Positions 26,801 to 46,226 of a DNA stretch of 64,000 nucleotides are shown here, piece after piece. The stretch spans positions 14,021,478 to 14,085,477 of the forward strand of contig JAUZTB010000062.1 in assembly GCA_034780895.1 (NCBI GenBank), in the 5' to 3' direction. The notes under the pieces were generated by a model. That model did no database searches, was not told the DNA's origin, and worked only from the letters and a program-made list of their open reading frames with translations. The position numbers were made by a program, and so were the translations under genes. Source of the DNA: Rhynchobatus australiae. Lineage: Eukaryota. Position 1 is the first letter of the stretch. Each line of letters opens with the position of its first letter.

Positions 26801-29800
26801 AGGAAAGGGACCACATGGGCTCGACAAAAGGAGTGATCATTATTGAAATATATAGGGAGAAATAAAGGAAATTTCTGAAATCTTCCTGAGAACACATTTT
26901 TTTCCTGCTTACTTCATATTCTTCGGGAGGAGAGACCAAGTGGAGACAGCAAATGAGTCAGTTGTTCTCATTTTTAAATCCCAAATTAGAATTTCTTCTT
27001 TTGTTACAATCATAACTTGACATTCTTTGCAAGTAACTGCATTTTATTTCCTACAGCAAAATATCTCTCACTGAAGATTAACACAATAGTAATGTTATTT
27101 ATTCTAGCTTAAAAAGATGCCTCAGGAAAACACTGGACTTACTTCTGTTTATCAGATTGTGGCATGTCTTGGTCTTCTGGGTTTGATTCCGAAATGTTCG
27201 TATTTTTATCATTTGATTTTCTTTCACCCTATGAAAATCATTTCCAAAATCATTTCTCTGGTTCACATTTCCATTCAGAAATAAATTGCATTAATAACAA
27301 AATGAACAAACTATTGCATCATTTGTACTTCACAAATGTGTGATTATACCAGTTTACTATATTATTATAAAAGGATGAAATAGATTTACATTAAGAATCC
27401 CTGATTTCAAGGTGAATTAATTGACACCGTGGAGTTTTTCCTGGCAAACTCCTCATTATGGATATAACGCATGTTTATCANNNNNNNNNNNNNNNNNNNN
27501 NNNNNNNNNNNNNNNNNNNNNNNNNNNNNNNNNNNNNNNNNNNNNNNNNNNNNNNNNNNNNNNNNNNNNNNNNNNNNNNNNNNNNNNNNNNNNNNNNNNN
27601 NNNNNNNNNNNNNNNNNNNNNNNNNNNNNNNNNNNNNNNNNNNNNNNNNNNNNNNNNNNNNNNNNNNNNNNNNNNNNNNNNNNNNNNNNNNNNNNNNNNN
27701 NNNNNGCATATTTCACATTAGAGACAGAGAGAGGATAAAACAACAATGCTACAAGGGGACCTACAGACATTAATCTTGTGCAAGAATACAAATTTATTTA
27801 ATATGTTAAAGGCGACAATTGAGTAAATTGTAAAACTTAAGATAGATAACTCACAAAGTAGTAATGCCTTTCTCCCTAGAGTGTTAACAAAAGGTGAGAA
27901 AATTACTGTTGGTTTTCATAATCTTTTTGACCGCTCTAGATTCAGGAACCATCCGTTCTCCAGCACCTCACTTCCATTTCCATCTCAAGGGGACTGCTTC
28001 CAATTGGTCTGCTCATACCTATCCAATTGGAGCCAATTTCAAATAAAGACCCCTTTTACTTCAAGTACACTGCCACCATAATGGCCCTCTTCTTTCTGAT
28101 TAAAATGTTGTTCCTTGACAGCATAATCAGCAGATATGGGGTCAGCTTCAATGTGCTCACTGATAAGGCTGGGCCTAATTCTACATCGCCTCTCTACTGT
28201 ACCATGCGACTGATTCCACTCCTGAGTGAGTCACAACTTCCTTCAGCCAAACATTGGTAATACTAAAGAAATTGTCTTCAGATCTTGAAATAAACCATCT
28301 CCATTGCCCATCCAGGCCGGTAACTTAGGCCAGACCAGACTATCCATTGTCTAGGTATTCTATTTGGTCAGAGGCCAAGCTTCCAACCCCAAATCATTTC
28401 CAAAATATCTCTCAACTCAATCCATTTTCTGTTGACTCCCAGATTCAACTATTTCAATGCTCTTCTACCGATTCTCCCCTCTGCATAAACTTTATTTTAT
28501 CCAGAAGTCTGCAGCTAAAGTTTGTGCTCAGTGACCCACATTGACTCAGGTTGCATCAATTTTAAACNNNNNNNNNNNNNNNNNNNNNNNNNNNNNNNNN
28601 NNNNNNNNNNNNNNNNNNNNNNNNNNNNNNNNNNNNNNNNNNNNNNNNNNNNNNNNNNNNNNNNNNNAAGAAATGGCCGACCCCTCATTCTGAGTCGGTG
28701 CCCCCAGGTTCCAGAGTCCTCAGCCGGAGGAAACATTCTCCCCGTTTCCAGCCCTATCAAGCTCTGCAAAAATTTGCAAGTTTCAGTGGGATCGCCTCCA
28801 GAGAATACTAGTCTAAACACAAACTTTCCTCAGAACCTCTGGGCCAGGACCCTTCACTGCACCCTGCTCCCCCAACCCTGCAATCTTTGGAACTTCCCAC
28901 CTCCTTCACCTCACCACTCGTGGTCAATTTCAGCTGCACCCAACCCCCACCATCTTGCTCTATTACTTTCTCACAGCCCTCTGTCTCCCCAGCTCTCTCA
29001 TCCTTTCAGATCATCATTATAAACACCCCTTTATCTCAGAGTTTAGTTGCTCTTTCTAATTGTTCCTTCTTTGGCCAGGCATCCATTTTTCCTTCACGTT
29101 AGTGAAGTATACTGTGCTAAAAATGCATTTCTTATGTAAATTATTGATGTTTATACAAAATAATCAGCTGGGAATGGGAGAAAAATGTAACATCTGGAAA
29201 ATTAAACAAAAAAATCAAATTTTTCCTGAATTTTATCATGACTTAATACTTTGGTGAAGATGTGCATTTCCTTGTACAGTATTTACCTTATGTAACAGCT
29301 GGTAAATAATAAAGGATCTATAATTTTTCAGGTATCAAGATTCTTCATTAAAAACATAGTTCCCGAGGGTCTGACCAAAGTAGAGTAACTCGAGGCAGTC
29401 ATCTTTTCTGCCACTTTTAAACTTGTTTTTCTTTTTTAATCTTTCCATTGACACTCAAACTGCATCTTTCTTTGTTGCCTTATGACCCTTCCCCAAATAA
29501 AAGAGGCTGCATTGTTTAAACATCAGAGCCATGGTTTCTCGGGGCAGATTGAGGAAATTCAACCAAAGATGATGGCAGTGTTTGAAACTGTCTTCCACAA
29601 ACTGCCACAATGCTGGGTCAATTGTCACTTCTGGACAATGGATTTTTGTTAACTGGATGAATGGTGCACAGAAAAGACAGGTAAATATTTTGCTCTTATT
29701 TTTGCGCTACTTTATTCCAATCTTCAGTTATCCATGATCTGTAGAACCATACCAACCTTTTTTGTTGGTCAATGAGTTTGCTTATTTTCATTTATTTTCC

Positions 29801-32800
29801 TCTATAAGCCAACTTAGCAAAGAAATAAACCCAAGCATGAATTAATGAATCAAGCAATACAGGAGCATCTGCTCTGTTACCTTTCTTTGGACGGCTTTGA
29901 GATTTTCTCTTGCTGTATCACTTCTGGCTGTTTTGTAACTGGCAGATTGACCTTTAGTGGGTGTCTGTTTGGCTGAGTCTTCACTCTTGCCCTTACTGCT
30001 CTTTGAAACACCAGTAGCTCTGGCCTTTAGGTCCATTTTTGGCTGATGTTTTATTTTTTTCTCTTCCCTTGCATTGTCAGAATCCACATTACTGTGCTGA
30101 GACGTTGATGCCACATTCAGCTCTAGCATCCTGTCTGGGACCACAGGCTTTGACACACCCTCCACATCAGCAATGGGTAGCATTTTACATTTTTTTGGAG
30201 AAATTATTTGTTCATTTTGACTCTTCTTTCTTTTTCTTTTCTTTTTTTAAAATTTAAGAGCAAGAAGAATGATTTATTCCAATATCAAAAGAATTTTGGA
30301 AAAATTAAGGCTCATTTATAAAGTATTATTTCAAATACCAATGTTTTCTTATTTGTTCTTTTGTATTTTACTGGAGCCAAAAGGTTTAATAACTATTGTT
30401 TTGTAAACTGAAATTCGCATAAACTCATCTCCATACTCTGCAACTGGATCCTCAACTTCCTGACCAACAGACTGCAATTGGTGAGGACAAGTTGCAACAA
30501 CTCTTCCACGGTTATCCTCAACACCGTGTCTTCAGCCCCTTACTTTACTCCCATCCAGGACTTTTTTTTCATTGAGCAGTGAATTTACAGCTGGAGACCA
30601 AGTAAGAAAGCACATGTTACTGATTCAGATATGAAGGTAATGGTGACTCAAATGATTGTGCTGTTGTTTGGAAGCACATTACTGCCTCTTGTAATACATC
30701 ACAAGACCAGGTAGACTTGGAGCCCAGTGCTGTTGGGACCTGAAAGGAGGTTGAGGAACAGTTTGGTATTTGAAAAGTTTTTAAAAAAAGCCTACTATAC
30801 TTCTACACAACTATACCTCTGATGAACTTTTGATGTCTGTGCTATCTTCTGTGGAACTATCCAAGGAAGAAGTCGCTGCTTTGGAATCATCTTGTAGACC
30901 TGCTCGATTCTGATTTTTATCAGGTGCTGCCTGTTTTTCTTCCACGGGGAGGTCTGGTTCAGCAGCATTTTCTGCTGTTTTGTTACTATCTGTGGTGAAC
31001 AAACATCATACTGTAAGCATGGGACATAACATTTGAAGACTAATTTAAAAGCAAGACTCCTTTAGATAAAACACCAGTACCTAATGACTTAAAGGGCATT
31101 TGAACAAGTTTTTTCCTCCCCCAAAAACAATGGGTGGCGGGGATATGGAATGAGCTGCCAGAGGAAATGGTAGAGGCAGATACAATAAGAAAATTTAAAA
31201 GACATTTGGACAGGTACATGAATAGGACAGGTTCAGAGGGATATGGGCCAAATGCAGACGAATGGAATAGTGTACATAGGCATCTTAAAGTCGGCATGAA
31301 TGAGTTGGGCCAAGGGCTCATTTCCATGCTGCATGAATCATGAATCTAAAAATGCGACCTGTTTTTCATGCAACAATTGCACTTTGAAAGAATTTTGCCC
31401 TGTTTTGATGTGTGTTCATTCTCTGCGGAAGTTCCTCACATTGAGAATTTGGACTGAGCACTTCATATTGCCATTCAACCTAACAGTAGTTTCATTTTCC
31501 TGTCATATTTCCTGCCAATGATGACATCATTAATATACTGGATTTATTTTAAAGAAACTGGATGATAGTTTTAAGAAATGGGATGAAAAGATCCTTACTT
31601 CAGAAATAACTCAAAAGAGTGATTAAAAACACTACAAATGCTGGTAATTTTAGGTGAAAAGAAAATATTCAGTGGGTCCAGCAGCAACTATGGATACAAA
31701 ACAGAATTAATATTTCAGCTCAATAATCTATTAGAACTCAGAAAACAAGCATGTTTAAACTTCCAGAGAAGGGGGAGGGATGGGGAGATGGAGGAAACAA
31801 AGGGAACATTGATAGAGTGGAGAACAAGAGAAAGTAAATGATACAAATTTGCAGTTGATGAGGAGAGGGTGTTGAAAACTTGCTAATGCCAGCTAAACTG
31901 TCTGGAGGAGGTGTGTATAGAATGACAGAAGTGTGAAAAATTCTGCTTGATTTGTAAGATACAGAACACAGCAGTTGCTGGAAATCTGAAATGGAGAATG
32001 CTGAGAAAGCCCAGCAGGTCAGGCAGCAACTGTGGAGAGAGAGAAAAAACAAGGAATTACATCAGAACTAGCCGGGACAGAAAAGCTTTTTGAGCATCTT
32101 CCTTCATTTCAGACTTTGGTGATGGTAGCCCAATGTGATGATGNNNNNNNNNNNNNNNNNNNNNNNNNNNNNNNNNNNNNNNNNNNNNNNNNNNNNNNNN
32201 NNNNNNNNNNNNNNNNNNNNNNNNNNNNNNNNNNNNNNNNNNNNNNNNNNNNNNNNNNNNNNNNNNNNNNNNNNNNNNNNNNNNNNNNNNNNNNNNNNNN
32301 NNNNNNNNNNNNNNNNNNNNNNNNNNNNNNNNNNNNNNNNNNNNNNNNNNNNNNNNNNNNNNNNNNNNNNNNNNNNNNNNNNNNNNNNNNNNNNNNNNNN
32401 NNNNNNNNNNNNNNNNNNNNNNNNNNNNNNNNNNNNNNNNNNNNNNNNNNNNNNNNNNNNNNNNNNNNNNNNNNNNNNNNNNNNNNNNNNNNNNNNNNNN
32501 NNNNNNNNNNNNNNNNNNNNNNNNNNNNNNNNNNNNNNNNNNNNNNNNNNNNNNNNNNNNNNNNNNNNNNNNNNNNNNNNNNNNNNNNNNNNNNNNNNNN
32601 NNCACAGACAATCCCACCACTTATAATTGCCCCCTGCTATTTCAGAAGGCAGTTAATATGCCACTTCTAGTAAGAAGGGCAAATTTCCTTTCCTGCCAGA
32701 TGCTTGTGAAGAAGATAGCTCTTTCTGTTTCAGCATCGTGGCATTTCATGGTTAATGTTACTGTTGCTAGATTTCTAATTCAGATTTGCTTCATTACATG

Positions 32801-35800
32801 AATTTAAGTTCCCCAGCTGTCCTGGCGGAATTTGAACCAATCTCTTGGTTAAATGGTCCATCCCTCTGCATATTCATCATTAACCACCACTCCACCCTGT
32901 CAGCTTGGCCCAGGTGTGACACAAAAGCTATCTTTTAATCCACAATGTATCCCACTACTAAAAAAGTTCTTTACCTCATGGTAATGTATTCTCATCTGCA
33001 AACAGACGAATGTAGTGGCTGCACATCAGACTGTTTCTGCTCAACCAGAAGCAGAATACAACACCTCAGCTCTACTGTATTGTCAATTTGACATAAGAGA
33101 CTCAAGTTCAGCTTCAAGTCCATGGTATGCCCTTGTGATATCAAAAACCTATTTTGCCCTGACCTTTCATCATGAATCCTTTCAATATGTTGCTCAAATA
33201 AAGCTTATCCTTTAACTTAAAATCAGTATGTGAATCAGGTTTTAAGATATCTGAATGTCACCTTCAGCAGAATTGTCAAGTTGATTGGAAGCATGGGGCT
33301 CCGTTGAATCTTCAGCCAGTAATTCCATCTTCCGAACAGCATCTTTAGGCCGAGGAACTGAGTTTTTTTTCTTGTTTCTGTTTTTCTTTCCGTGTTTATT
33401 CTGCCAAATAACCCATTGAAGACAAATGAACAACCCAGCTCAGATAAGCAACTATTAGATGACATATACTTAAGTAGATTCCATTTTTGAAAGACAAGAA
33501 ATATTATAGTACACTGTTCCTGATTAGAAGTACAAAATATGGGAAATAACAGGGTGTAAACAAATTGAACAACTTAAAACAAAGACCTCAAACCATTTTT
33601 AATGTAGAAGTCAACTTGCTGGGGCAAAATACACAGGCAATGTTACAACTAAAATATGTTTGTGGTTTAGTTTTGTTAAAGCCTTTTGTTTCACATCAAA
33701 GCAGCAATTGCCATGTAAATTCAAACTGAATCCATTGACACGGTTTTCACCTTGCATGCAACAGAACAAGGTGCTGTCTCCAGGCATGAGCAAACACACA
33801 GCACTTCACTTTTGGCCATCTGATCTACATACTTCAGATGTAATTGGCAAGAGTAAAAATGCCAACATTTCTTTAACCTGCCTTTATGCCTGCAGTGTAG
33901 TCTAATGCTACGTGAAAGTTGGTTTCCATTTTCAGCAGAGATTTCCAGAAAAAGGAACAGGATCGATTCTATTCAATTTCAATCTTCCTTCAAAGGATCG
34001 TCAAGAACATTTTGCAACAATTTCCTCAAGATATATAAACATCTGAAAAGTTAAAAGTTGGTTGTGATGCTAGATTTCAAATCATTCTGTGGGATACTAA
34101 CATAAATTCTTAATGTAAATGATTTTTTTCTTGATTCTCTTAGTAGCAACATTAATCATTTAAAGTAATACTTTTGCTCTGATGGAAATGCAGTCCAATT
34201 ATGCTCTTATATCAGATCCTTGATCCTAAATAACATCTTAATACTGCTCTTCCATACATACCTTCCTTCTTTTTCCACCCACAAAATTAGTGCCGTTGGC
34301 TGTCTCCCTTTGGGAAGATGTGCTTTGTGCTTTGCCACCCAATCCATTAACTCCCTTCTCACTGCTCTGGCTTGTAGGTTCAGCACTGGATCTTCTGCGT
34401 GTTTTCTGGATGTCAGATACATTCTGCTCCACTGGATGAGCTTGAACGTCCATTACATCTAAGAACAGAAAATCTAATTGAAGAATCGCTATTCACTCCA
34501 TCAAGATTGCTCCATTCCATGTTAACAGGGGACCTAAAGTCTATGTGCTTGTATTTGCTGTCCTTGGACAACAGGATAAACTTATTGTTGCATTGAATGT
34601 ACCAGAGAACATATTGGATGCCCACCACTGCACTTTTTGTTCAAGTGACTGATCCAAGCCATTTATATAAATTATTTTAACACGGTTCATTTTAAGACAA
34701 TGCTATTTTTATCATCAGACCCGACCTGGAATATTAAGCATAGCCAATTTCTTTCACTGTAAATGTCTCAATACCCAGCATTTCTTAAAAATAACTTTAA
34801 TATCCACCTTCTGTGGTTTGTCCAGGATTATTGACCTCATTTTGGTGATTTACAGCCTCATCATTAGTGGAATCCACAGAGGATGTTTTCTCAGGCAAAC
34901 AAGGTGATTTCGCCAACACAACAGAAGGTTCATCATTTCCATTTTTCTTTCTATTCTTCTTCTTGCATTTCTGCATCACAAAAAAAAACCCTCTCATCAG
35001 CCCTGAAGCTTCATTGTTCTGTAACAGATTTGGTTTTTGTGAGCACAACATCAAAGTGTCACACAGTGTCAAACCAGTACTATACACTAGTGTTATAAGG
35101 GTCAAAGCTGTGCTTACCAGTATATCATATTTTCACACATTTCCAGGGCTATGTCCATGAGTACTACACCCCAGTATTACAAAATAATAGACCCTAGCCC
35201 ACCAGCTCTCTACCCACTCTATATGGAATCTACAGGCTTGCCAGACCTGATGCTTGACAGAGCAGGTTGGCATGTATTTAGGAATGCTACACTTCCTTCT
35301 GATGTTTGAGCATGGTCTCAATGCTCTTGGTCCTAGAGATTTTCAGCCAAAACCATCTGTATATTGCACAAGGTATCAGACTCCTCACTTTAGATAATTT
35401 CCAACAACCCTATCCTTGTACTGATCACTTTACACTTGTGACTTGACAACTTTGGGCTTGAAGCCACAGACTGAGCTCATATGGACCTCGAGCCACTGCT
35501 TCAGGACTTGATGCCAGAGAGCAACTCGACCAGAGTTGCATCGCATAAAGAGTCATGGGCTTGATGCAGGGGAATTACTCACGTAGCATCATTCAACATG
35601 AGCATCTCTAAATGGCACCCTAGACCTGTTCACTCATTCTCAACGGTTGAGCTCAAAAGGAGTTTATTTTTATGAGATTACAAACAGATCAGATGTCACT
35701 TCCAAAATCACATTACCTTCCTCATTGTGACACTAATTACTTTTTTCTCTTCAAAATTCTATCCCATTCCTTTTAAATACAACTCATCCCCGTGTCAATA

Positions 35801-38800
35801 ACTGCCTTTATTGAAGTACCCAAAACCTTCGTTCAAAAATCCTTCTCCCTTCCCTTTTCTTTCTTCCACGGAGGATCCTTGCCCTCCATCACCATTGGCC
35901 CACTAAAGGAAACAATCTGTCATTACTTATTCAGAGCAATAAGAAACAGAATGCAAGGAACAGGAGTAGGCCAATCAGCCACTCAAGCCCACTCCACTAA
36001 TCAATAAGATTAACATAGATCAAATCCCAAGCCATTTCCTGCTCTCTTCCTATTCCTCGATTCCCTTGTAGTTCAAATGCCTGTCAATCTCTGCCTTACA
36101 GGCAAACAATGACATCACTCACACACCTGTCTGAGGTACAAACTTGCAAAGTGTTACAATATTGGTGAAAAGAAATTTCTGCTTATTTCCATCTGCGTTT
36201 TCTGAAATTATGCCCCTGGGAAGCAGCCTTTCAGCAATCCATTTGTCAATTACCTTCAGAATCTTAACGTCCTCAACATTCACATCACACCTTTCCGGAC
36301 ATTGCTCCAGGTCTGTGGGAAGTGCTGAGCCCATAATGACTCCATTTTCCTCCTTGAGTACTCCAAGTATCCCTCTTGATCTGTCTTCCTCCTTCAAAAC
36401 AGAAGCACTCTCTTCCTCTCAGGAGTCTCATTCTCAACTCTTACTACCTGTGCAGTCTACTCCAAACCAGCATTGCACCTCTTGCCAAACTCCTCTCATT
36501 CAGTCTCTGGCTCCATCACCAGGGTCCCTCTGCTGCCTTTTGCCAACATTAACAGCTTAAAATAACACCTTTGCTATCATGGCGATGTGAGAATATTTAG
36601 ATCAACGTAATCATCTATGCCATCCTGTCCAGCCTTTGATTCCCGAATAACTCATCTTAGCACTGTTGCTCCATACATACCCCCTTTGATTGCTTTCCCG
36701 CCACAAAGTTAGTATTGTTGGCTGTCTCCTTTTGGGAAGATGAGTACTTGTTAGCAGCAGGTGCAGCTTCTGTTTTGCCATCCAATCCTTCAACACCCTT
36801 TTCCCCATCCTGGCTTGAGCGATTAGCATTGGATCCTNNNNNNNNNNNNNNNNNNNNNNNNNNNNNNNNNNNNNNNNNNNNNNNNNNNNNNNNNNNNNNN
36901 NNNNNNNNNNNNNNNNNNNNNNNNNNNNNNNNNNNNNGGCTTGAGCGATTAGCATTGGATCCTCTGCATGTTTTCTGGATGTACGGTACATTCTGCTCCA
37001 CTGGATGAGCGTGAATATTCATCACTTCTGATAACAGAAAATCACGTTGTAGAAACTCTGTTCACTCCACCAAGATTGCTCCGTTCTGTGTAACATAGGA
37101 CCTAATATCTACGTGCTTGTATTTGCTATCCTTGGACAACAGGATAAAAATATCAATTGAAATTATTGTTGCATTGAACTTATTAGAGAATATATCGGAC
37201 ATCCATCACAGCACTTCAAGTGACTAATCCTAGGCATTTATATACATTTGAAGCAGTGTATTCACCTATATTTCCAGTATTTTTAACATTGTTCATTTTG
37301 AGATGACCCTGTCTTATCATCAGACCTAATCTGGATATTAAGCACAGCCAAATTTTTTCACTGTAAATTTCTCAATATCTTGCATTTCTTAAAAAATGAT
37401 TTCAGTATCTACCTTCTGTGGTTTGTCCAGGATTATTGACCTCATCTTGGTGATTGACAGCCTCATGATTGGTGGAATCCACAGAGGATGTTTTCTCACG
37501 CAAACAAGGTGATTTCGCCAACACAACAGGAGGTTCATCATTTCCATTTTTCTTTCTATTCTTCTTCTTGCGTTTCTGCATCACACAAAAAAACCTCATC
37601 AGCCCTGAAGCCTCCTTGTTCTGGAACAGATTTGGTTTTGTGGATAGAATATGAACCAGTACCAGCACCATAGCAGTGTCACACAGTTATGGACCTGTGC
37701 ACACCAGTATTATAAGGGACAGAGCAATATTTACCTGTATTATAATCATAATTTCACACAGTGACAGACCTGTGCCCATGAGTACTGCACCCCAGTGTTA
37801 TATAATGATAGACTTTGGCCCACCGTCTCTTTACCAACTCTTGCAAATGGGACGACCAAGATGGATATTTTGGTTGGTGTGGACAAATTGGGCAGATGGG
37901 CCTGTTTCCATGCTGTGTTGCTCTATGACTCCCATGACTCTAGCCACTCTTGGTGGGATCCAGTCTTGCCACATATGATGCTTGACAGGACAGGTTGGGA
38001 CATACTTTGGAATGTTATACCTCCTTCTGATGTTTGAGTATGGCTTCAATACTCTAGTCCAAGAGATTTTCAGCCAGAGTCCTCTGTAGATTCGGCAAGG
38101 TGTCAGACTCCTCAGTTTAAAGAACTTCCAACAAGCCCTAACCCTTTCTTGATGTCCTTACACTTGTGACTTGACAACTCTGAATTTGGAACCATAGTCT
38201 CAGCTGACATCGAGTCACTGCTTCAAGACTTGATGCCACAGACCAACTTGACCAGACTGAGAAATCACATAAAGTGGCTTGGTGCAGGGGAATTTCTCAC
38301 GTCATCCTAAACTGCTACACTAACACCCTTAAACCACACTCTAGACCTATGTTTTCTGAAAGTATGTCCTGGGAAAAAGCATCTCAGCAAGCAACCTGTT
38401 AATTACCCACAGAATCTTAATGTCCTCAACCTTCACACATGTACTGCTCCTCTCTGGACATTGTTCCAAGTCTGTGGGAAGTTCTGAGCCCACAATGACC
38501 CCATTCTCCTCCTTGACCTCTCCAAGTATTCCTCTTGATCTGTCTTCCTCCTTCAAACCAGAAGTGCTCTTTTCCACTCGGGAGTCTCAATTCCACCAAC
38601 TCTTACTACCTGTTTATTCTACTCCAAACCAGCATTGCACCTCTTGCCAAACTCCCCTCATTCAGTCTCCATCTCCATCACCAGGGTCCCAAGTAAATTT
38701 GAAAAGTGGAAAGTTTATTATTCTGCTCGTCAGAGTTTTGGACTTTAAATTCTGTGGTATACTGACATACATCCTGAATAAAAAATAATTTTTTTCCTCT

Positions 38801-41800
38801 GCTGTCTTTTTAGCAACATTAACAGCTTAAAATAACACCTTTGCTATGATAGCAATGTGAGAACATTTAGATCAACATAATCATCTCTGCCATTCTGTCC
38901 AGCCTTTGATTCCTGAATGTCTCATCTTAGCACTGTTGTTCCATACATACCCCGTTTGATCGCTTTCCCGCCACAAAGTTAGTATTGTTGGCTGTCTCTC
39001 TTTGGGAAGACGAATACTTGTCATCAGCAAGTGCGGCTTCCGTTTTGCCATCCAATCCATCAACTCGCTTCTCCCCACCCTGACTTGTGGGATCAGCACT
39101 GGATTCTTCACATGCTTTCTGCTTAATTGGATGAGCCTCAACATTCTTCACATCTGATAACAGAAAATCAAATTGTGGAATCTCTATCCACTCCATTAAG
39201 TTTGCTCCATTCCATGTTAACATCGGACCCAAAGTCTATGTACTTGTACCTGCTGTCCTTGTACAGTAAAGGTCCAATTCACCAATTACACTCTACATTT
39301 TTCACTGAGTGTACAAGGGAATACGTTGGATGTTCACCGTGGCTCCATGTTCCTCCAAATGACCAATCCAGGCTATGTACATAAATCTGAAATAATGTAC
39401 CCCCAAAATTTCCAGTATTTTTAAATAAAGTTTGGGTTAAGTCTGTTCCACCATCAGACATAATCTGGACATTATACAAAACCGAGTTCTTTCATTGTAA
39501 ATTTCTCAGCATCTTACACTTCCTTAAATTAATTTTAATATCTACCTTCCGTGGCTCCTCGAAGAATGTCGGTCTCGTTTTGGTGACTTACAGCCTCATC
39601 TTTTGAGGAATCCACAGAGGAGGTTTCCTCAGGTAAACACGATGGTTTCTCCAACACAACAGAGGGTTCATCATTTCCANNNNNNNNNNNNNNNNNNNNN
39701 NNNNNNNNNNNNNNNNNNNNNNNNNNNNNNNNNNNNNNNNNNNNNNNNNNNNNNNNNNNNNNNNNNNNNNNNNNNNNNNCTGCTTCCTGTGTTTCTGAAT
39801 CACAAAGAAAATTCATCAGTCCCAAAGCCTCAATTCTGTAACGGATCTGGTTTTGTGGGTTGAATATGAAATGTCTGCCTTTTCTAATATAGACAGACAT
39901 ATTCAATGAAAACATCTATGTCTTGTTCAATAATGATTTTAAAAAGAGTGAATTGATATGTTAGCCTTCTTAGGTATAAAGCCAATGAAAACATTTGTGA
40001 GTTGTTCAGAAAAGAGATATTTTTCAAAAAGTGTATGATGTATTTAAACCTATTTAACTGTGTAGCGAGTGAGAATACAAGTGAATACAAGAGTGAAGCA
40101 AGACCAGGAATGTCTATTGATCCAATCCCCAGTGTATCTGCTATCCAGCTTCCACCTTTTGACTGATCTACCTTCCTCCTTTTGTTTCATACTAGATGGT
40201 AGCTTGCAAATCGGTCAAGTTTCAGGAGTTTTAATACACCAGGGAGCTTTACACCTTTGGAAATGTTACTTCGTAGTTGGAAGGTTAAAGCAAGGCACCC
40301 TTAGGTACATAGCTATCAAAGGCTCGATGGCAAAATTGCAAAGGACAGCATGCTGCTTTCGGTGTACTGATTAAATATTTATTTATCAACCAATATCACT
40401 AAAACAAATTGTCCAGTCAGTATCACACTGCAATAAGCGGGACTGTGCAATGCACAAACTGGCTGCTGTTTCATAACTACAACAGTGACTACGCTTGAAG
40501 TGTGCTTTGTTGGTTTGAAAGAGCCTTGGGATGTTCTGGGATTGTGAGAGGCATGACAGAAGTACCAAATTTACATTTTGAGCACTTGCCTTGATGCTGC
40601 AAGCTGCTCGGATTCAGTATGAATCATGGTCATCCATGCCCTGCAAGTGACATCAGATCACAATCCAACAACATTTATCAGCACTAAAAAAAAATGTCAT
40701 TAACCTGAAAATTAACTCTGTTCCTTTCTCCACAGATGCTGCTTGACTTGCTGAGTATGTCTAGCAATTTTTTGATTTCTTGCACCTATAATATTTTGAT
40801 TTTCTACATTTCAAATCACTTCATTCCCCTTCTGATCGGAAAGGAAAAAGAACTTTTGTTTGAGCAACTCAATTACAGGTTAATGGTCACCAGGACTCTT
40901 TTGGGCTACTGAAGCAGTGGTATACCCCTTGGCCAGAGGCGAACTTTTAAGACAATACTGCAATGGCATTCAGGAAAAAAAAACAACAAAATTCAAGGGT
41001 CCCTTTTTTCTAAAGGGCTTCTCCTTCTCAGAGGACAAATACTTCCCACTCCCCTAAATCACAAAGCTAGATGTACATCCTCCCTGAAAACAGGTGCCTG
41101 TCTTTGACAAGACTGAACTGTGTGTAGGTGGCTGAGGAAGAGATAGTAATTCAAAACATCCTACAGCCCATTGTGCCTGTAACAAGTGTCTCAACCTGCC
41201 CTTAAGAGGCAATGAGAGACCAGCATCCAACAGTAGAGTAGCCTAGTGCTATACAGTGATAAACCAGTGCCCAAGTGTTGTACCTCAGTGTTAAATGGTA
41301 ACAGACCTGTAACATCCAATACTGTAATAGCATTACATAATAGCATATCTTTGCTCACCCCTTGTTGTTCAGTGATGGAACTGTGTCTACCTGTACTATC
41401 AGCCTGCATTATAGAATGACAGGCCCAGGCCAACCAGTACTGTACCCCAATGTATCAACACCCTGTGCCTAGTCTGTCTGCAGCATAGGCTACATAGAAT
41501 GGGAGGGAAGGGAGCAGAGAGGGGTCGGTGACTGAAGGGGTGGGAGGACATTGAAGGAGGAAACTGAGAAGGATTGTGGACTGAAGGAAGAAGTTAGTGG
41601 ACAGGGGATGAAGTGATTATGGTAGGGGGGAGCAAGGAAGATGATGTGGACAAGTGTGTGCGTGTGTGTGTGTGTATGTGTGCGCGTGCGCACGCACACA
41701 CATATGCAAGTCCATGTGCATGTGTGTGGCAAATTTGTTTAGAACATCCCGGTCTTCAGTTGTCTAGGACCTCCTTGCCATTGCACCAAGACTTCATTAA

Positions 41801-44800
41801 TTGACAGACAATTTCCATTCCTTAGAAATGAACTGGAAGCAAGTTATCCTTGACCTTAAAAAGTTTGATTAAGAAGAGAAGATCCACTGTTTAAACAGTG
41901 AAATGTCTGTGCCCATCAATAGAACTTGGCTTCCGCAGCACTGCTCCCAGTCTCCACACTTCTTCCTGATATTTTCATAGGTTTCTCCATTCAAAGAGTG
42001 GGGGTTCCCAGGAACTGCTCACAAGCTGGCATGACAAGAGACCAGACCAAAGNNNNNNNNNNNNNNNNNNNNNNNNNNNNNNNNNNACAAAGTCCTTAAG
42101 CAGCCACATGCAGCCCTGGAGCAGCAGGTTGGCAATCACACACTTAGAAGACAACACTTTCTGAACTCCAGAGCTCTGACTTGTTCATCACAGGCAACTG
42201 GACTTCATTCTGAACCACAGCAAAGGGGAAAATGCTTCCAATTTGAATAAACCAAAACAAGCATTAAAAACTCAAACATGGAAGCTTCCCAATTACTATA
42301 TTTCCCTCAGAGCGTTGTGATCTTTTGCCTTGGCCTCCCAAGTTGTTAAAAACGATGGCATTTCCTCTTCCAGTTATTTTCCACGTGCCCCTTTGTGAAA
42401 TGCCATTTTCCAATAAATATACACACAAAATATCCAAATAACGACAAAAATACAAAACAAGAAAATAACATACCCCGCTACACTTTTCTGTAGATTCTAG
42501 CAGATGAGTTTGTGCTTCCTTCAAGCTCTGCGGAAGGGCAGGAGAAGATATTTTTCCCAAAGTTGACACCATGACAACGACCGGCTGTGGTTTAGATGGA
42601 GCATCATTTGCACCCACATCTGGAATTTCAATTATTTTGTTTGTCGGCTCCAGGGAGATTGGATCCTGATTAGAGAAACAGTGACTTCCTGATGTAGCTG
42701 AATCTGTTGGAGATGTTCCCTGGGATTCCAGTGGCACTTCAGACTGCACATTGCCTTCTTCATTGGTCAAAGGTCCCTGTCGGAAATCCAATAAAGAGAA
42801 TAAACCTCTGTAATGGTACACTACTAAAAACAGACGTAGGGCATTTGGATGTAGTTTTCATTCCACCCAGTGAAAGAAAACATTAAACTTCTCCCTCATA
42901 TTCCAGAGTGGATCTCCCTTTTCCACCTTCACGCTGTATTTTCTCTGCTCCTCCCTTGCTGAAATACATGGTAACTGTTCAAACATCTCACTGAATGTGC
43001 TATTCTGCAGACACCATTTAAATGACTGTCCAGATCCCAGTGCTGAGCAAAGCCATTTTATTCAACTTACTTACTATGACAAAGAAGGAAACCCATTGCG
43101 TCCATGACAACTCTTGGCAGAGCAATCCATTCTTATTATTATCCTGTAGCTATACAGTTCATTCTCTCTCACATGCCCATCAACTTCCCTTTGGGTCCTT
43201 TCACCTTTTATCGTCACCAGGGATACAGTGGCCAATTAATCTAACAGGACACCTTTGGGATGGTGGAGGAGAGAATCAAAGCACCAAAGAGAAACCTGTG
43301 CAGACACAGGAAGAACATACAAACTCCACACAAACAGCATCTTGGGGGTGTCAGTGCTTCCTAGCAAAGAACCATCAAAGCCGATTGTAGCACTCCCATT
43401 TCTGCCTGACTCAAAGCAGTTCCTTAGCTTCAACTGAAGTGGAAATTCAGGATCTTCCATGACCGTAAACCTCAAGCAACCACCAGTTTAACTGCTCCAT
43501 TAGGAAAGCCAGGAATTGTCTTTCAGAATTGCAGAAAGCACAAGTATAAACAATGCATTGTCAGTTGGTGCTACCAAGGTTTTATGCATCATGCACAAGT
43601 TGTGGAAAATGTTGATCACATATCTATCTACAAGGTTTGAGACAGGAACAATAGCTTGCATCCTTCAAAACGCATATTGTTACAAGCCCAGTTTGCTATT
43701 TAATGAGTGTNNNNNNNNNNNNNNNNNNNNNNNNNNNNNNNNNNNNNNNNNNNNNNNNNNNNNNNNNNNNNNNNNNNNNNNNNNNNNNNNNNNNNNNNNN
43801 NNNNNNNNNNNNNNNNNNNNNNNNNNNNNNNNNNNNNNNNNNNNNNNNNNNNNNNNNNNNNNNNNNNNNNNNNNNNNNNNNNNNNNNNNNNNNNNNNNNN
43901 NNNNNNNNNNNNNNNNNNNNNNNNNNNNNNNNNNNNNNNNNNNNNNNNNNNNNNNNNNNNNNNNNNNNNNNNNNNNNNNNNNNNNNNNNNNNNNNNNNNN
44001 NNNNNNNNNNNNNNNNNNNNNNNNNNNNNNNNNNNNNNNNNNNNNNNNNNNNNNNNNNNNNNNNNNNNNNNNNNNNNNNNNNNNNNNNNNNNNNNNNNNN
44101 NNNNNNNNNNNNNNNNNNNNNNNNNNNNNNNNNNNNNNNNNNNNNNNNNNNNNNNNNNNNNNNNNNNNNNNNNNNNNNNNNNNNNNNNNNNNNNNNNNNN
44201 NNNNNNNNNNNNNNNNNNNNNNNNNNNNNNNNNNNNNNNNNNNNNNNNNNNNNNNNNNNNNGTCAATGTCTGATATCTAACATTTTTATTTCTCTTATTA
44301 TTACAAGTAGTTATTAATAAATAGATTCTAACATTTAAACATGACTCATTGTGTTTCTATTATTGCTGGTACATAACAACATCAAGTCTTTAGAAGTCCT
44401 ACAGGGGAAATTCCCTCATGCTTCCAGACTTCCATGTAACTATAATTGAATCATCTCTCTCTGCAACTGGCCCTTCCCCATGCTAAGTCACACCTAATCT
44501 CCAATTAAATCCATGTCTTGATCGATTTATTGCAAGAGGATTTGAGTACAACAATAATGATGTCTTACTGGATTATACAGGCCCTTAGTGGAGTCATGTA
44601 CAATTTTGATTTCCTTACCTCGGCAAGGATAGGCTTGCCTTTAGAGTACAGTGAAGGTTCACCAGACCGGTTCATGTTACAGCAGTTTGTCATATTTGGG
44701 GAGATTGAGCAGGCTAGACCTTTATTCTCTTTAGAAGAACAAGTGGTGATCTCACTAAAGTGTACAAAATTTGGAGAAGACTTTAACAGGGTAAATGAGA

Positions 44801-45933
44801 GGGGATGTTTCCTTGACTAAGTTGTCCAGAACCAGTAGTCACACTATCTAAATGAGAGGTATGCCATTTAACACTTAAATTAGGCAAAATTTCTTCATTT
44901 GGTGGGCAGTAAATCTTTGGACTTCTCTACCCCACTGGAATGTAGAGGCTCAGTCACTGTATTCAAGACAGAGATGGGTTGTCATTTGCCCACAGCTCAA
45001 GCTTCTTTTGCATTCCATGTCTCCCCACTGCTAACAGCTTTTTGAAGGTCACAAAGTGGAATTGCCTTCCTATATCCCACCTTGTCCTACTCTCACTTTC
45101 AAACAAAGCCTTTGGACTTGCAGTATTCCCTCAACATCCATGTTCATTTGATTGCACCTTTGTGAAGTGCCCAGAGACTTTTCCTGAAATAAAAGCAGAA
45201 AATCTAGATAATCAGCAGGGCAGGGAGCAGTTGTGACAGAGAAACAGAGTTAACATTCTAGGTTGTAGAACTTCCATCAGAATGGTAAAAGTTGCTTTTC
45301 AGATAACTATTTTATCATGGGATTAAATTTAATGTTGTTGCATGCACTAGCACTGCCCAAAGTCCAATGAGTCTAGTGTATCATCGGAATTTCCTGTTAC
45401 ACAATTCTCAGCCTATACGATATTCTGCCACTGTTCTGGCCAACCAAAATTAATGCCACGTCAGATTTTTAAAATAAAAACACAACAAGCTGCCGTGACT
45501 CTTATTTGCCGTGAAAGCATGGCTTAAATGAACTAGCTGAATCACAAACTTTACTACATTCATAAATATGTGACATTCAATATCAATTTCACCTTGCTCT
45601 ATGCCATACATTTTGTTACAACAACATGTCTGTGCCAGTGATTAGCCTGGATATTGGTGGATTCTGGCGGGCAGGTGCTTTCTCTGTAAAACTTTCAGCA
45701 AAAGACACAATCTGTTTCTCCACAAGCTAATGGCCTGCCGCTGAGATAATCACAGGTTCACTTACTGTTTCAGAGGCAATAACATAATCAGAGTCTCCAA
45801 TTTCCACTGTAACTGAAGCAGGCTCCAAAGTGTTTGATGCTGAAAGAGGAGAGTGATCAGCAAGTGATAACGATGAATCCAGTAGAGATGATTTCTGGAG
45901 TTCCTGGGCCACATCAGGAATGTCTTCTTCCAT
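350..45933 (-). CDS. RNF213: RNF213-like (mysterin; probably rnf213-beta type) gene, 5' part: disordered N-arm, CBM20-like domain and start of the helical stalk; spliced, continues beyond window start
   Basis: Chain of GT-AG exons with consistent phases. Peptides [69 protein letters not shown] and [15 protein letters not shown] recall vertebrate RNF213 in the same order. Confidence 0.85.
2267..2434 (-). CDS. RNF213: RNF213-like exon (GDCSKLNV...DLFQA)
   Basis: 168 nt, phase 1-1, |gtgagt donor, resembles the RNF213 L.SG.I..GQL..I..F.DIW segment. Confidence 0.85.
3186..3630 (+). mobile_element. CR1 LINE ORF2 fragment
   Basis: Homologous to 63200-63670 ([17 protein letters not shown]). Confidence 0.85.
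3975..4410 (+). mobile_element. CR1 LINE 3' end
   Basis: [31 protein letters not shown] peptide and ctgtactgttctatgttc tail. Confidence 0.85.
4628..4802 (-). CDS. RNF213: RNF213-like exon (NKKEAELL...YCLLQ)
   Basis: 175 nt, phase 0-1, open. Confidence 0.85.
5580..5985 (-). mobile_element. Old SINE with a Deu-like core (SacSINE1-like); related relics near 25905-26160, 40380-40560, 47190-47350 and 62330-62700
   Basis: gcagcac..ccctcagtactgcactg core and caaagcactttg/actacacttcaaaag-type tail shared among the copies. Confidence 0.55.
6137..6259 (-). CDS. RNF213: RNF213-like exon ([10 protein letters not shown]...DAICQ)
   Basis: 123 nt, phase 0-0, resembles RNF213 FEKC.IEAV..ACQ. Confidence 0.85.
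6937..7035 (-). CDS. RNF213: RNF213-like exon ([10 protein letters not shown]...KRIQE)
   Basis: 99 nt, phase 0-0, canonical splice sites. Confidence 0.85.
7660..8272 (+). mobile_element. Degenerate CR1 3' fragments
   Basis: WN.LP..V motifs and a 3' UTR similar to other copies in the window. Confidence 0.7.
8277..8402 (-). mobile_element. 5'-truncated SINE, same family as 18375-18673
   Basis: Reverse complement of 18537-18665. Confidence 0.85.
8440..9095 (+). mobile_element. Degenerate LINE (L2/CR1 clade) 3' region
   Basis: [22 protein letters not shown] peptide; related copy on minus at 58680-59150. Confidence 0.7.
9115..9355 (+). mobile_element. CR1 3' end
   Basis: WNSLP.RVVEA followed by gatcagccatgat..ctactcctgctcct 3' UTR. 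Confidence 0.75.
10564..10713 (-). CDS. RNF213: RNF213-like exon (ESQNESPP...KKELE)
   Basis: 150 nt, phase 0-0, strong acceptor. Confidence 0.85.
11951..12110 (-). CDS. RNF213: RNF213-like exon (SVSDLKEN...MLLAE)
   Basis: 160 nt, phase 2-0, ttttttgcag| acceptor, |gtaagt donor. Confidence 0.85.
12659..12714 (-). CDS. RNF213: RNF213-like short exon ([19 protein letters not shown])
   Basis: 56 nt, phase 0-2, ttattctgcag| acceptor, ag|gtacac donor. Confidence 0.75.
13249..13459 (-). CDS. RNF213: RNF213-like exon (KLLQLVFQ...REDIE)
   Basis: 211 nt, phase 2-0, 'D..LIQSWFLL' resembles RNF213 'DEPLFRSWFSLL'. Confidence 0.85.
14856..14883 (+). repeat. (TG)n microsatellite
   Basis: Direct reading. 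Confidence 0.95.
15840..16830 (+). mobile_element. Two degenerate CR1 3' fragments
   Basis: [15 protein letters not shown] and [16 protein letters not shown] peptides. Confidence 0.8.
16990..17258 (-). CDS. RNF213: RNF213-like exon ([11 protein letters not shown]...FPEFQ)
   Basis: 269 nt, phase 0-2, canonical splice sites. Confidence 0.85.
18375..18673 (+). mobile_element. Full-length tRNA-derived SINE with V-SINE-type core
   Basis: A box tggtagtgtagcgg, B box ggttcaattcc, core gagtttgtacgttctcccc..gtgggtttcctc..tgctccggtttcctcccaca. Confidence 0.88.
19826..20100 (-). CDS. RNF213: RNF213-like exon (EWHQYDGIL...FKDEQ)
   Basis: 275 nt, phase 1-0, WHQY motif of RNF213. Confidence 0.88.
20660..21240 (+). 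mobile_element. CR1 reverse-transcriptase fragment
   Basis: [20 protein letters not shown] and GV.QGSVLGP motifs, frameshifted. Confidence 0.88.
21470..22290 (-). mobile_element. Rex1/Babar-like non-LTR RT fragment
   Basis: [42 protein letters not shown] and IESILS.CI.AWYG peptides. Confidence 0.8.
22485..22880 (-). mobile_element. CR1 3' end
   Basis: [20 protein letters not shown] peptide; ctgtatgattctatga tail on minus. Confidence 0.8.
23477..23640 (-). CDS. RNF213: RNF213-like exon, CBM20-like domain second half ([12 protein letters not shown]...PSDLPEN)
   Basis: 164 nt, phase 2-1, resembles RNF213 RDLG..LVEG..IPYKY. Confidence 0.85.
25266..25283 (-). CDS. RNF213: Start of an RNF213-like exon (NQSTVRP...) running into gap 24967-25265; expected to encode the first half of the CBM20-like domain
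   Basis: Strong polypyrimidine acceptor ttttttgtttctttcttgtag|, phase 2 matches the previous exon. Confidence 0.6.
26165..26784 (+). repeat. Direct repeat of about 160 bp (26165-26324 and 26625-26784)
   Basis: Near-identical purine-rich copies offset by 460 bp. Confidence 0.9.
27143..27228 (-). CDS. RNF213: RNF213-like exon (GERKSNDK...SDKQ)
   Basis: 86 nt, phase 0-2, ttttcatag| acceptor, |gtaagt donor. Confidence 0.75.
29881..30240 (-). CDS. RNF213: RNF213-like disordered exon ([10 protein letters not shown]...AVQRK)
   Basis: 360 nt open, phase 0-0, aag|gtaaca donor. The acceptor position is less certain (A-rich). Confidence 0.7.
30817..30989 (-). CDS. RNF213: RNF213-like disordered exon ([11 protein letters not shown]...KSSSE)
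   Basis: 173 nt, phase 1-0, cacag| acceptor, gag|gtatag donor. Confidence 0.7.
31100..31348 (+). mobile_element. CR1 3' end
   Basis: [23 protein letters not shown] peptide. Confidence 0.85.
33262..33400 (-). CDS. RNF213: RNF213-like diverged A-type exon ([12 protein letters not shown]...DNSAE)
   Basis: 139 nt, phase 0-1, basic start like the A exons, g|gtgaca donor. Confidence 0.65.
34262..34458 (-). CDS. RNF213: RNF213-like repeat exon B3 (DVMDVQAHP...GGKRRK)
   Basis: 197 nt, phase 1-0, ttctgttcttag| acceptor, aag|gtatgt donor. Confidence 0.7.
34808..34970 (-). CDS. RNF213: RNF213-like repeat exon A3 ([16 protein letters not shown]...GQTTEG)
   Basis: 163 nt, phase 0-1, 7 nt differences from A2, g|gtggat donor. 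Confidence 0.7.
36681..37027 (-). CDS. RNF213: RNF213-like repeat exon B2 (EVMNIHAHP...GKQSKG); contains a probably spurious gap
   Basis: Phase 1-0. Collapsing the 26-nt overlap flanking the 100-N gap gives 221 nt in frame. |gtatgt donor. Confidence 0.7.
37413..37575 (-). CDS. RNF213: RNF213-like repeat exon A2 ([16 protein letters not shown]...GQTTEG)
   Basis: 163 nt, phase 0-1, T-rich ..gatgcag| acceptor, g|gtagat donor. Confidence 0.7.
38951..39153 (-). CDS. RNF213: RNF213-like repeat exon B1 (DVKNVEAHP...GKRSNG)
   Basis: 203 nt, phase 1-0, ttatcag| acceptor, |gtatgt donor, open frame. Confidence 0.7.
39546..39794 (-). CDS. RNF213: RNF213-like repeat exon A1 ([16 protein letters not shown]...GATEG), interrupted by an assembly gap
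   Basis: Homologous to A2/A3. tgattcag| acceptor, g|gtagat donor. The 100-N gap would replace only about 14 nt if the length equals A2/A3. Confidence 0.65.
41654..41703 (+). repeat. Compound (TG)/(CG)/(CA) alternating purine-pyrimidine tract
   Basis: Direct reading. Confidence 0.85.
42474..42776 (-). CDS. RNF213: RNF213-like N-terminal disordered exon (GPLTNEEG...EKCSG)
   Basis: 303 nt open, cag| acceptor, |gtatgt donor, phase 0-0, S/P/E-rich. Confidence 0.75.
44510..44980 (+). mobile_element. Degenerate CR1 3' fragment
   Basis: Nucleotide similarity to the other CR1 copies. Confidence 0.6.
45766..45933 (-). CDS. RNF213: RNF213-like putative first coding exon ([10 protein letters not shown]...IASET); exon acceptor boundary at 45946
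   Basis: gagATGg Kozak context, tttag acceptor, aca|gtaagt donor, phase 0 into the next exon. Confidence 0.6.
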
Positions 45934-46226
45934 CTCAATGCAACACCTAAAGAGGTTTTAAAAAGTTTTTTATACTGAAATAATACCTGCATCGTTATTA
46001 TTAAATGTAAAAGTTATTAAAATATGAAAAATATATCATACTGTTATTTATCACCATCCTGCCACATTAACATTTATATTATTAACGTGAATTTACATGA
46101 CACTTCACATTAAAACATCCCACTGACTTTTACAAAGTCTGATACTGACTTGTTAAGAGAGCAGAGGCATTTGCAGATAACAATGCTGTCTGCAAGATCC
46201 AGGCCAATGTCACTTGTTTGTTATGT

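What the first reader, a model, noticed from the sequence alone, without database searches (positions are those of the whole stretch)
33262..39794. Tandem expansion of a frame-preserving two-exon cassette in the RNF213 N-terminal arm
Seen: three copies of exon A (phase 0-1, 163 nt where complete) and exon B (phase 1-0, 197-221 nt) were duplicated together with their introns, in the order A1-B1-A2-B2-A3-B3. A diverged A-like exon (33262-33400) and a phase 1-0 exon (30817-30989) follow and may be an older copy. Every copy keeps AG/GT sites and an open frame. Summed exons give about 780 aa before the CBM20-like domain, roughly twice the mammalian disordered arm. Known: RNF213 is an interferon-induced antimicrobial E3 ligase with a fast-evolving N-arm. 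Inference: an accordion-like, splice-tunable module, since any AB or BA pair can be skipped in frame.
Basis: partly seen in the sequence, partly recalled or inferred. Interest (0 to 1): 0.75.

Follow-up and report, generated by a model that had tools for sequence, protein, structure and literature searches.

The report
Triplicated exon pair in ray RNF213-beta
A ray carries three intact copies of a two-exon unit in the floppy front end of RNF213-beta, a fish sister gene of the human immune enzyme RNF213; other rays have three or four copies and sharks one, and the extra copies likely serve as a longer tether with more positively charged patches, with splice-skipping of copies predicted in only one relative.

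Summary
Three A-B exon pairs with their introns lie in tandem (68-88% DNA identity), with AG/GT sites and frame kept. The 100-N gaps in A1 and B2 close in frame in DNA contigs of related organisms (A1 151 nt, B2 221 nt), so this is not a mis-assembly. The arm is about 790 aa.

Corrections:
1. The gene is rnf213-beta, an ancient paralog absent from the 7 tetrapods sampled, not the mammalian ortholog.
2. A4/B4 show no detectable homology to A/B.
3. The array is old and ray-wide: 3 copies in sawfish and skates, 4 in devil rays, 1 in sharks.

Copy 2 is a mosaic that breaks inside exon B2, the mark of unequal crossing-over. Copies are under weak purifying selection (dN/dS 0.48-0.66). One of 4 ray gene models with isoforms drops exactly one B+A pair, but this may be read mis-mapping, and no RNA run holds this stretch. 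Each extra copy adds a Lys/Arg patch. Sharks independently duplicated a different patch-headed cassette in rnf213-alpha. Tandem duplication of phase-symmetric exons in disordered regions is a known kind of event; the recurrence in RNF213 seems unreported.

The parts
45766..45946 (-). E1, first coding exon of rnf213-beta (ATG at 45933, 56 codons, ends phase 0); lacks the CxxC start seen in alpha-type RNF213
   Evidence: (91% to Pristis residues 1-55)
42474..42776 (-). E2, phase 0-0, 303 nt, single copy
   Evidence: 89% to Pristis 56-155
39546..39794 (-). Exon A1, phase 0-1; 100-N gap 39680-39779; 151 nt in relatives; basic patch mostly absent
38951..39153 (-). Exon B1, phase 1-0, 203 nt
   Evidence: 89% to Pristis B1
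37413..37575 (-). Exon A2, phase 0-1, 163 nt, begins with a Lys/Arg patch; 156 of 163 nt identical to A3 (likely gene conversion)
36681..37027 (-). Exon B2, phase 1-0; 100-N gap 36838-36937 with a 26-nt overlap on both sides; 221 nt when closed; mosaic: 5' part closer to B3, 3' part closer to B1
34808..34970 (-). Exon A3, phase 0-1, 163 nt, begins with a Lys/Arg patch
34262..34458 (-). Exon B3, phase 1-0, 197 nt
   Evidence: 85% to Pristis B3
34084..39870 (-). Whole duplicated block: three units of about 2.1-2.7 kb, exons with their introns
33262..33400 (-). Exon A4, phase 0-1, 139 nt, begins with a Lys/Arg patch; single copy here, old (present in sharks), duplicated with the next exon in Chiloscyllium; not detectably homologous to A
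30817..30989 (-). Exon 'B4', phase 1-0, 173 nt; not detectably homologous to B
29881..30240 (-). E3, phase 0-0, 360 nt, begins with a Lys/Arg patch; skipped in isoform models of 7 shark and skate genes
27143..27228 (-). E4, phase 0-2, 86 nt, last arm exon before the CBM20-like exons
23478..23642 (-). Exon of the CBM20-like domain (the exon before it appears to run into the gap 24967-25265)
   Evidence: homology of the skate ortholog to human RNF213 across this domain

Best explanation
Three intact copies of a two-exon unit sit in the low-complexity front end of ray rnf213-beta; they likely arose by unequal crossing-over, are likely spliced in most of the time, and likely act as a longer flexible tether carrying extra Lys/Arg patches that would help the ligase gather on negatively charged surfaces such as pathogen vacuoles. 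Shown: copies, phases, frame, orthology, copy numbers, mosaic B2, a basic patch at the start of A2, A3, A4 and E3. Inferred: one ancestral A-B unit (as in sharks) doubled in the ray stem; a crossover inside exon B gave the third; devil rays added a fourth; conversion later made A2 and A3 alike. Untested: expression of each copy in this organism, disorder (inferred from composition and the mammalian structure), and any binding by the patches.
For: Copies. Gaps bridged in relatives' DNA. Same layout in the Pristis model, 80-93% per arm exon. Copy counts over 23 beta models: 6 of 7 ray models have 3-4 B copies, 11 of 12 shark models have one A, 3 bony fish have none. Mosaic: A, intron AB and the 5' part of B are closest between units 2 and 3 (95.5, 82, 84%), while the 3' part of B and the next intron are closest between units 1 and 2 (86, 91%). 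Trees: all ray A copies form one clade (99), all ray B copies one clade (95); skate B1+B2 100, Mobula B2+B3 97. Coding constraint: no stop and no net frameshift in 6 exons, against about 6-8 expected per pair from intron indel rates (P about 4e-4 to 3e-3; pairs not independent); dN/dS 0.66, 0.48, 0.59. Composition of the Pristis arm: 1.3% aromatic residues against 9.2% in the folded part. Basic patches: 4 in each of 4 full ray beta arms, 2-4 in shark beta arms, 1 in opossum and chicken RNF213. In Amblyraja and Leucoraja the middle unit shrank to 82 aa but kept its patch. Human residues 1-367 aid recruitment to Toxoplasma vacuoles (PMC11549300, passages). A polybasic patch anchors GBP1 to bacterial outer membrane (PMC12091997, passages; an analogy only). 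Salmon rnf213b is induced by virus and interferon (PMC12234341, passages).
Against: No binding data of any kind. dN/dS differs from neutral in only 1 of 3 pairs (P 0.014, 0.10, 0.24), and open frames are demanded of any constitutive exon in a 5,600-aa gene. A1 has largely lost its patch in this organism and in Pristis, skates and Mobula. A second Rhinoraja gene model lacks E2 through B3 altogether (483 aa). Of 7 independent long (80 aa or more) arm repeats, 4 clearly hold a patch by my reading, which is about what patch spacing alone would give. Repeats occur in 28 of 121 RNF213 arms examined (18 of 31 cartilaginous fish, 10 of 90 others, sorted by hand from names), many without patches, which fits a region that simply tolerates growth. 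The human deletion of residues 1-367 still coats Salmonella and Listeria efficiently (PMC11549300), and that result concerns the alpha paralog.
Confidence: 0.45

Rival explanations
1. Near-neutral growth: the disordered arm tolerates extra length, duplications of phase-symmetric units survive because they keep the frame, and nothing is selected beyond avoiding stops and frameshifts.
For: Repeats of many unrelated kinds in 28 of 121 RNF213 arms; dN/dS near 0.6 and significant in 1 of 3 pairs; a Rhinoraja model with no copies; truncated A2 in two skates; duplication of symmetric disordered exons is common genome-wide (PMC3632108, passages).
Against: Three or more copies are kept in three ray orders; the A core is still recognisable between sharks and rays; patches persist at each B-A junction, even in the truncated skate unit.
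Confidence: 0.33
2. Regulated splice dial: cells choose how many A-B units to include, for example after interferon, and so tune arm length and charge.
For: Every AB or BA pair is skippable in frame. M. birostris X4 drops one B+A pair, 128 aa. Shark alpha models drop whole cassettes: Heptranchias 426 aa = 2 x 213, S. torazame 342 aa, C. plagiosum 208 aa; the last removes a copy only 40% like its neighbour. Human exon 4 (147 bp) is skipped in frame (PMC3140517, passages).
Against: Only 1 of 4 cassette-bearing ray genes with several models shows the skip. Three of the four cassette-skip models join near-identical starts (15-16 of 17 aa), where short reads can be mis-placed. No regulation is shown anywhere.
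Confidence: 0.15
3. The Lys/Arg runs are nuclear-import or nucleic-acid-binding signals, or a by-product of purine-rich splicing enhancers at exon starts, rather than membrane anchors.
For: The runs look like classical import signals (recalled) and lie at exon starts in purine-rich DNA.
Against: RNF213 is described as cytosolic and perinuclear (PMC10465799, search listing only); nothing was tested here.
Confidence: 0.06
4. Mis-assembly: haplotypes or collapsed repeats stitched across scaffold gaps.
For: Two 100-N gaps fall inside A1 and B2; none of the listed pieces from the best-holding run spans them.
Against: Copies differ by 12-32%; contigs of organism B bridge both gaps and one of organism D bridges the A1 gap; the Pristis model has the same order.
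Confidence: 0.01

Closest known systems
rnf213-beta (rnf213b) of ray-finned fishes, and its cartilaginous-fish orthologs (e.g. Pristis pectinata XP_051888724.1, Mobula birostris XP_072098537.1; mostly labelled 'rnf213-alpha-like' by RefSeq)
   Same: Same gene: 80-97% identity per exon to Pristis; clade support 0.998 with coelacanth and ray-finned beta. The RefSeq ray models already contain the repeats.
   Different: Sharks have one A-B unit and bony-fish beta none detectable; the repeats are unremarked in the papers I found.
Mammalian RNF213 / mysterin (human 8S24, 9G08; mouse 6TAX)
   Same: Same architecture: disordered front end, CBM20, stalk, AAA core, RING and RZ; an in-frame optional exon in the front end (human exon 4, PMC3140517); one basic patch in opossum.
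   Different: A paralog, split before sharks and bony fish parted; arm about 377 aa with no internal repeat in opossum; positive selection in primates centres on CBM20 and stalk (PMC11549300), not shown for these copies.
Tandem duplication of phase-symmetric exons in disordered regions (Schad et al. 2013, PMC3632108)
   Same: A phase 0-0 unit coding for a low-complexity stretch, repeated in tandem.
   Different: The unit is two asymmetric exons (0-1 plus 1-0); copies are included in series in the gene models, not mutually exclusively as in tandem-exon substitution events (PMC9741552, search listing only).
Shark rnf213-alpha 210-aa arm cassette (seen here)
   Same: Tandem cassette in the RNF213 front end, headed by a Lys/Arg patch, with models that drop whole copies.
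   Different: Unrelated sequence, other paralog, other lineage: 2-3 copies in 10 of 10 shark models, 1 in 8 of 8 ray models.

Membership tests
RNF213 family | Homology over CBM20 and stalk to solved RNF213 | tested here: met
   Window exons match Pristis residues 1-1574 in order; the skate ortholog aligns to human RNF213 from the CBM20 region on, E 3e-155.
RNF213 family | AAA core, RING and RZ finger in the same chain | not testable with these tools
   They lie beyond the window's end and no genome is held. The Pristis ortholog carries PF00004, PF00097 and PF20173.
rnf213-beta subfamily | Groups with ray-finned rnf213b and apart from rnf213a | tested here: met
   34-sequence tree on 1191 columns, with Pristis standing in for the window gene: beta clade 0.998, alpha clade 1.0.
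Ortholog of mammalian RNF213 (alpha) | Groups with tetrapod RNF213 | tested here: not met
   All 7 tetrapod sequences fall in the alpha clade with a second shark/ray gene.
Tandem duplicated symmetric exon unit | Copies in tandem with introns, unit phase 0-0, frame open | tested here: met
Tandem duplicated symmetric exon unit | Encoded region is disordered | tested here: inconclusive
   Composition only and no Pfam match for exon A2; no fold was run. The mouse front end is described as disordered (PMC7311170, passages).
Gene accordion (copy number rising and falling quickly under selection) | Near-identical copies with number varying within species | tested here: not met
   Units are 68-88% alike; the same layout stands in Pristis and organisms B and D. 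Variation within the species could not be examined.
Gene accordion (copy number rising and falling quickly under selection) | Origin by unequal crossing-over between copies | tested here: met
   Mosaic unit 2 with the switch inside B2; lineage-specific pairs in skates and Mobula. The step from pattern to mechanism is inference.
Alternatively spliced cassette array | Transcripts that skip copies | tested here: inconclusive
   1 of 4 ray genes with several models, possibly mis-mapped; no RNA could be laid for this organism.
A/B repeat (for exons A4 and B4) | Sequence homology to A and B beyond phase and basic start | tested here: not met
   Profile-profile probability 0.13% and 0.11%; profile scores within the range of 100 shuffles; no intron match. 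Very old homology cannot be excluded.

The most novel reading that the evidence does not exclude
Cartilaginous fishes built, twice and in mirror image (rays in rnf213-beta, sharks in rnf213-alpha), a valency dial in the RNF213 front end: repeated cassettes each carrying one polybasic patch, whose number is set by duplication and trimmed by splicing, and which controls how readily RNF213 nucleates its coat on pathogen surfaces. That would point to the single basic patch of mammalian RNF213 as the functional element in its unexplained first 367 residues.
Probability: 0.13. Interest if true: 0.65.

Novelty: new member of a known kind. Interest (0 to 1): 0.36.

Why it matters
How RNF213 first recognises very different pathogens is open, and its first 370 or so residues are unresolved in structures yet help targeting of Toxoplasma vacuoles. 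The ray and shark arms give a natural series (0, 1, 3, 4 units; with or without the patch) that suggests a concrete test: does patch number set recruitment? The work also shows that the ray and shark genes labelled 'alpha-like' here are rnf213-beta, an old paralog that the sampled tetrapods lack. If the arm merely tolerates growth, the finding is an ordinary exon duplication in a disordered region.

Tried and rejected
No whole genome is held for this window, so the 3' part of the gene and the alpha paralog of this organism were not examined.

Sequencing runs: no RNA holder listed, which says nothing on expression. Four DNA contig sets were laid; only 40 of 916 difference rows were shown, so no between-species dN/dS was attempted from them.

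First protein search with one exon found nothing because it covers only proteins up to 2000 aa. Self-BLASTP for arm repeats returned nothing for a technical reason and was replaced by a diagonal scan with local shuffles; that scan left out arms under 120 aa and proteins with no CBM20 hit.

Logan-derived skate proteins (P0044-46, P0049-50) cover residues beyond 1550, not the repeats. A4/B4 as older copies: rejected for lack of homology. Positive selection among copies: not seen in pairwise averages; site models were not run. A common origin of the alpha and beta cassettes: no cross-hits. Enrichment of basic patches among duplicated units: not shown. Whether the third copy arose once in the ray stem and was later converted, or separately in skates and other rays, is unresolved: the trees rest on 44-55 aa. 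No beta model from Hypanus, Hemitrygon or Narcine came up among the 120 of 771 hits listed; this is not evidence of loss. No structure prediction was run. Earlier scan findings held nothing on this gene; the 8 of 41 shown concern non-animal RNF213 relatives.
Full report
WHAT IS THERE. The minus strand carries the 5' part of an RNF213-family gene. Between E2 (42776-42474) and A4 (33400-33262) lie six exons in the order A1-B1-A2-B2-A3-B3, each with AG and GT ends, A in phase 0-1 and B in phase 1-0. Self-BLAST shows three units of about 2.1-2.7 kb, introns included, 68-88% identical. The assembly is gappy (19 N runs in the window) and two 100-N gaps fall inside A1 and B2.

THE GAPS. Laying four DNA contig sets resolves them in relatives. 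One contig of organism B runs 37440-36938 and continues at 36811, so the 26-nt overlap counts once and B2 is 221 nt. Contigs of organisms B and D cross the A1 gap with two letters, so A1 is 151 nt. Both keep the phase and both agree with the Pristis protein. Other contigs bridge A2 to A1 (organism B, 37653-40696) and A2 to the intron after B1 (organism D), so no hidden copies sit at these gaps in those organisms. The arm comes to 776 codons plus a short linker.

WHICH GENE. A whole-library HMMER search with a stalk exon gave 3 hits, of which one was a true relative, Chiloscyllium XP_043570814. Searches from it and from Mobula gave the shark and ray orthologs. The closest is Pristis pectinata, 80-97% per exon, so the source is likely a ray near the sawfishes. 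A tree of 34 sequences over the stalk end and AAA core puts these genes with coelacanth and ray-finned rnf213-beta (0.998); all 7 tetrapod RNF213 and a second shark/ray gene form the alpha clade (1.0). Both paralogs show the same longest-contig length in several species (e.g. Chiloscyllium, Heptranchias, Amia), which suggests they share a chromosome. Salmon rnf213b is induced about 6-fold by virus and by interferon-gamma (log2 2.7 and 2.6; PMC12234341, passages), so an immune role for beta is reasonable but untested in rays.

DISTRIBUTION. Over 23 beta models: Pristis 3 A + 3 B; both Mobula 4 + 4; Rhinoraja gene 1 3 + 3; Amblyraja and Leucoraja 3 B with a truncated A2; a second Rhinoraja model 0. 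Eleven of 12 shark models have one A (the Hemiscyllium model is 4443 aa and has none). Callorhinchus gives one weak hit each, and three bony fish none. Both Chiloscyllium species instead have A4-B4 twice. The array thus spans three ray orders. Rhinopristiformes alone is dated at 110-159 My (PMC10671267, passages), so at least the first duplication is older than that, by inference.

HOW IT AROSE. Similarity switches inside B2. Upstream of it, unit 2 is closest to unit 3 (A 95.5%, intron 82%, B 5' part 84%); downstream it is closest to unit 1 (B 3' part 86%, next intron 91%). That is what a crossover between B1 and B3 of a two-unit ancestor leaves. Protein trees of the copies (44-55 aa, so weak at depth) give one clade for all ray A copies (99) and all ray B copies (95), shared first and last copies among this organism, Pristis and Mobula (76, 82), and lineage-specific pairs in skates (B1+B2 100, A2+A3 95) and Mobula (B2+B3 97). 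A2 and A3 here share 156 of 163 nt, more than the adjoining intron (P 2e-5), and are closer to each other (40 of 44 aa) than A2 is to Pristis A2 (36 of 44). This suggests later gene conversion. So the array has moved, but over tens of millions of years.

SELECTION. No stop and no net frameshift in six exons, against about 6-8 per pair expected from intron indel rates, and intact orthologs in five other ray species. The copies are therefore very likely real coding exons. Amino-acid constraint is mild: dN/dS 0.66, 0.48 and 0.59, significant in one pair of three. Identity to Pristis in the copies (81-92%) overlaps that of unique arm exons (80-93%) and is a little below stalk exons (89-97%); the CBM20 exon is 84%. 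There is no sign of unusually fast change.

SPLICING. Any AB or BA pair can be skipped in frame. Among the 4 cassette-bearing ray genes with more than one model, one (M. birostris X4) drops a B+A pair of 128 aa. The starts of the two B exons involved match at 15 of 17 residues, so read mis-placement could produce this model. Better supported, because unique, are skips of E3 (7 gene models) and of the 5' part of B alone in three sharks (51-58 aa). All are automatic RefSeq models whose read support I could not see. Human RNF213 also has an optional in-frame exon 4 (PMC3140517, passages).

A WIDER PATTERN. A diagonal scan found internal repeats in 28 of 121 RNF213 arms (18 of 31 from cartilaginous fish, 10 of 90 others; species are not independent, and 4 of the 18 are one faint old repeat). 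Shark rnf213-alpha has an unrelated cassette of about 210 aa in 2-3 copies in 10 of 10 models, against one copy in 8 of 8 ray models: the mirror image of beta. Models drop whole cassettes in Heptranchias, S. torazame and C. plagiosum; the last removes a copy only 40% like its neighbour, so mis-mapping between copies is not the cause there. The ray beta, Chiloscyllium beta and shark alpha cassettes each carry a Lys/Arg run. These are only three or four events, and patches are frequent enough in the arms that this may be chance.

MECHANISM. I commit, at 0.45, to a tether with added basic patches, mostly spliced in. Support is indirect: patches are kept at each B-A junction, even in the shrunken skate unit; human residues 1-367 aid Toxoplasma vacuole targeting (PMC11549300, passages and Discussion); a polybasic patch anchors GBP1 to bacteria (PMC12091997, passages). 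Near-neutral growth is a close rival (0.33), since disordered symmetric exons duplicate readily (PMC3632108, passages), A1 lost its patch and one skate model has no copies. The regulated splice dial gets 0.15.

NOVELTY. The kind of event is known. The repeats are present in public RefSeq models. I found no paper remarking on them in searches for 'rnf213 + cartilaginous fish' (3 papers), 'rnf213a + rnf213b' (3), 'RNF213 + polybasic' (5), 'RNF213 + positive selection + N-terminal' (19, 16 listed), 'RNF213 + N-arm + cryo-EM' (4) and 'RNF213 + disordered + N-terminal + phase separation' (13, 11 listed). Most of these were judged from listings, subscription papers are not covered, and supplements were not read. 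Other papers seen as passages: PMC7311170 (there 'N-arm' means residues 1-1290, of which only the start is disordered), PMC9304896 and PMC4632019 (nothing bearing on this). Verdict: real, well supported as structure and history, ordinary in kind, with a modestly surprising recurrence in both RNF213 paralogs; interest 0.36.

Noticed in passing
Shark rnf213-alpha proteins P0180, P0199, P0186, P0086 and others: A different cassette of about 210 aa, headed by a Lys/Arg patch, in 2-3 copies in 10 of 10 shark models and 1 copy in 8 of 8 ray models; three models drop whole cassettes. Mirror image of the beta array.
   Followed up: partly
Chiloscyllium beta proteins P0003, P0007 (orthologs of window 33400-33262 and 30989-30817): The A4-B4 pair, single here, is duplicated in both bamboo sharks: a further independent duplication in the same arm.
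   Followed up: partly
window 29881-30240 (E3): Unique 120-codon exon headed by a Lys/Arg patch; skipped in isoform models of 7 shark and skate genes, and absent (as is E2) from the Mobula models read.
   Followed up: partly
window 45730-45765: The sequence just after the E1 donor resembles the longer first exon that is coding in sharks and ends in a stop after 12 codons; in sharks that extension and E2 look like a faint old duplication (period about 108 aa, 36-48% identity).
   Followed up: partly
Rhinoraja proteins P0038 and P0019: Two rnf213-beta gene models in one species, one with the full arm and one lacking E2 through B3 (483 aa); a real tandem gene with a contracted arm or an annotation gap.
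   Followed up: no
window 60572-60760, minus strand: Exon of a TMC-family channel gene (PF07810, E 2e-20) upstream of rnf213-beta on the same strand.
   Followed up: no
Scyliorhinus alpha proteins P0198, P0199: An 8-residue minisatellite has expanded inside the first alpha cassette; other vertebrates (a frog, a bird, a catfish, pike, chimaera) have unrelated short repeats in the same arm.
   Followed up: no
window 23478-23642: The CBM20-like exon is less conserved against Pristis (84%) than the four stalk exons checked (89-97%), echoing the fast evolution reported for primate CBM20; one pair only.
   Followed up: no
window 26200-26340 and 26620-26790: A direct repeat of about 150 nt inside the intron before the CBM20-like exons, seen by eye.
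   Followed up: no
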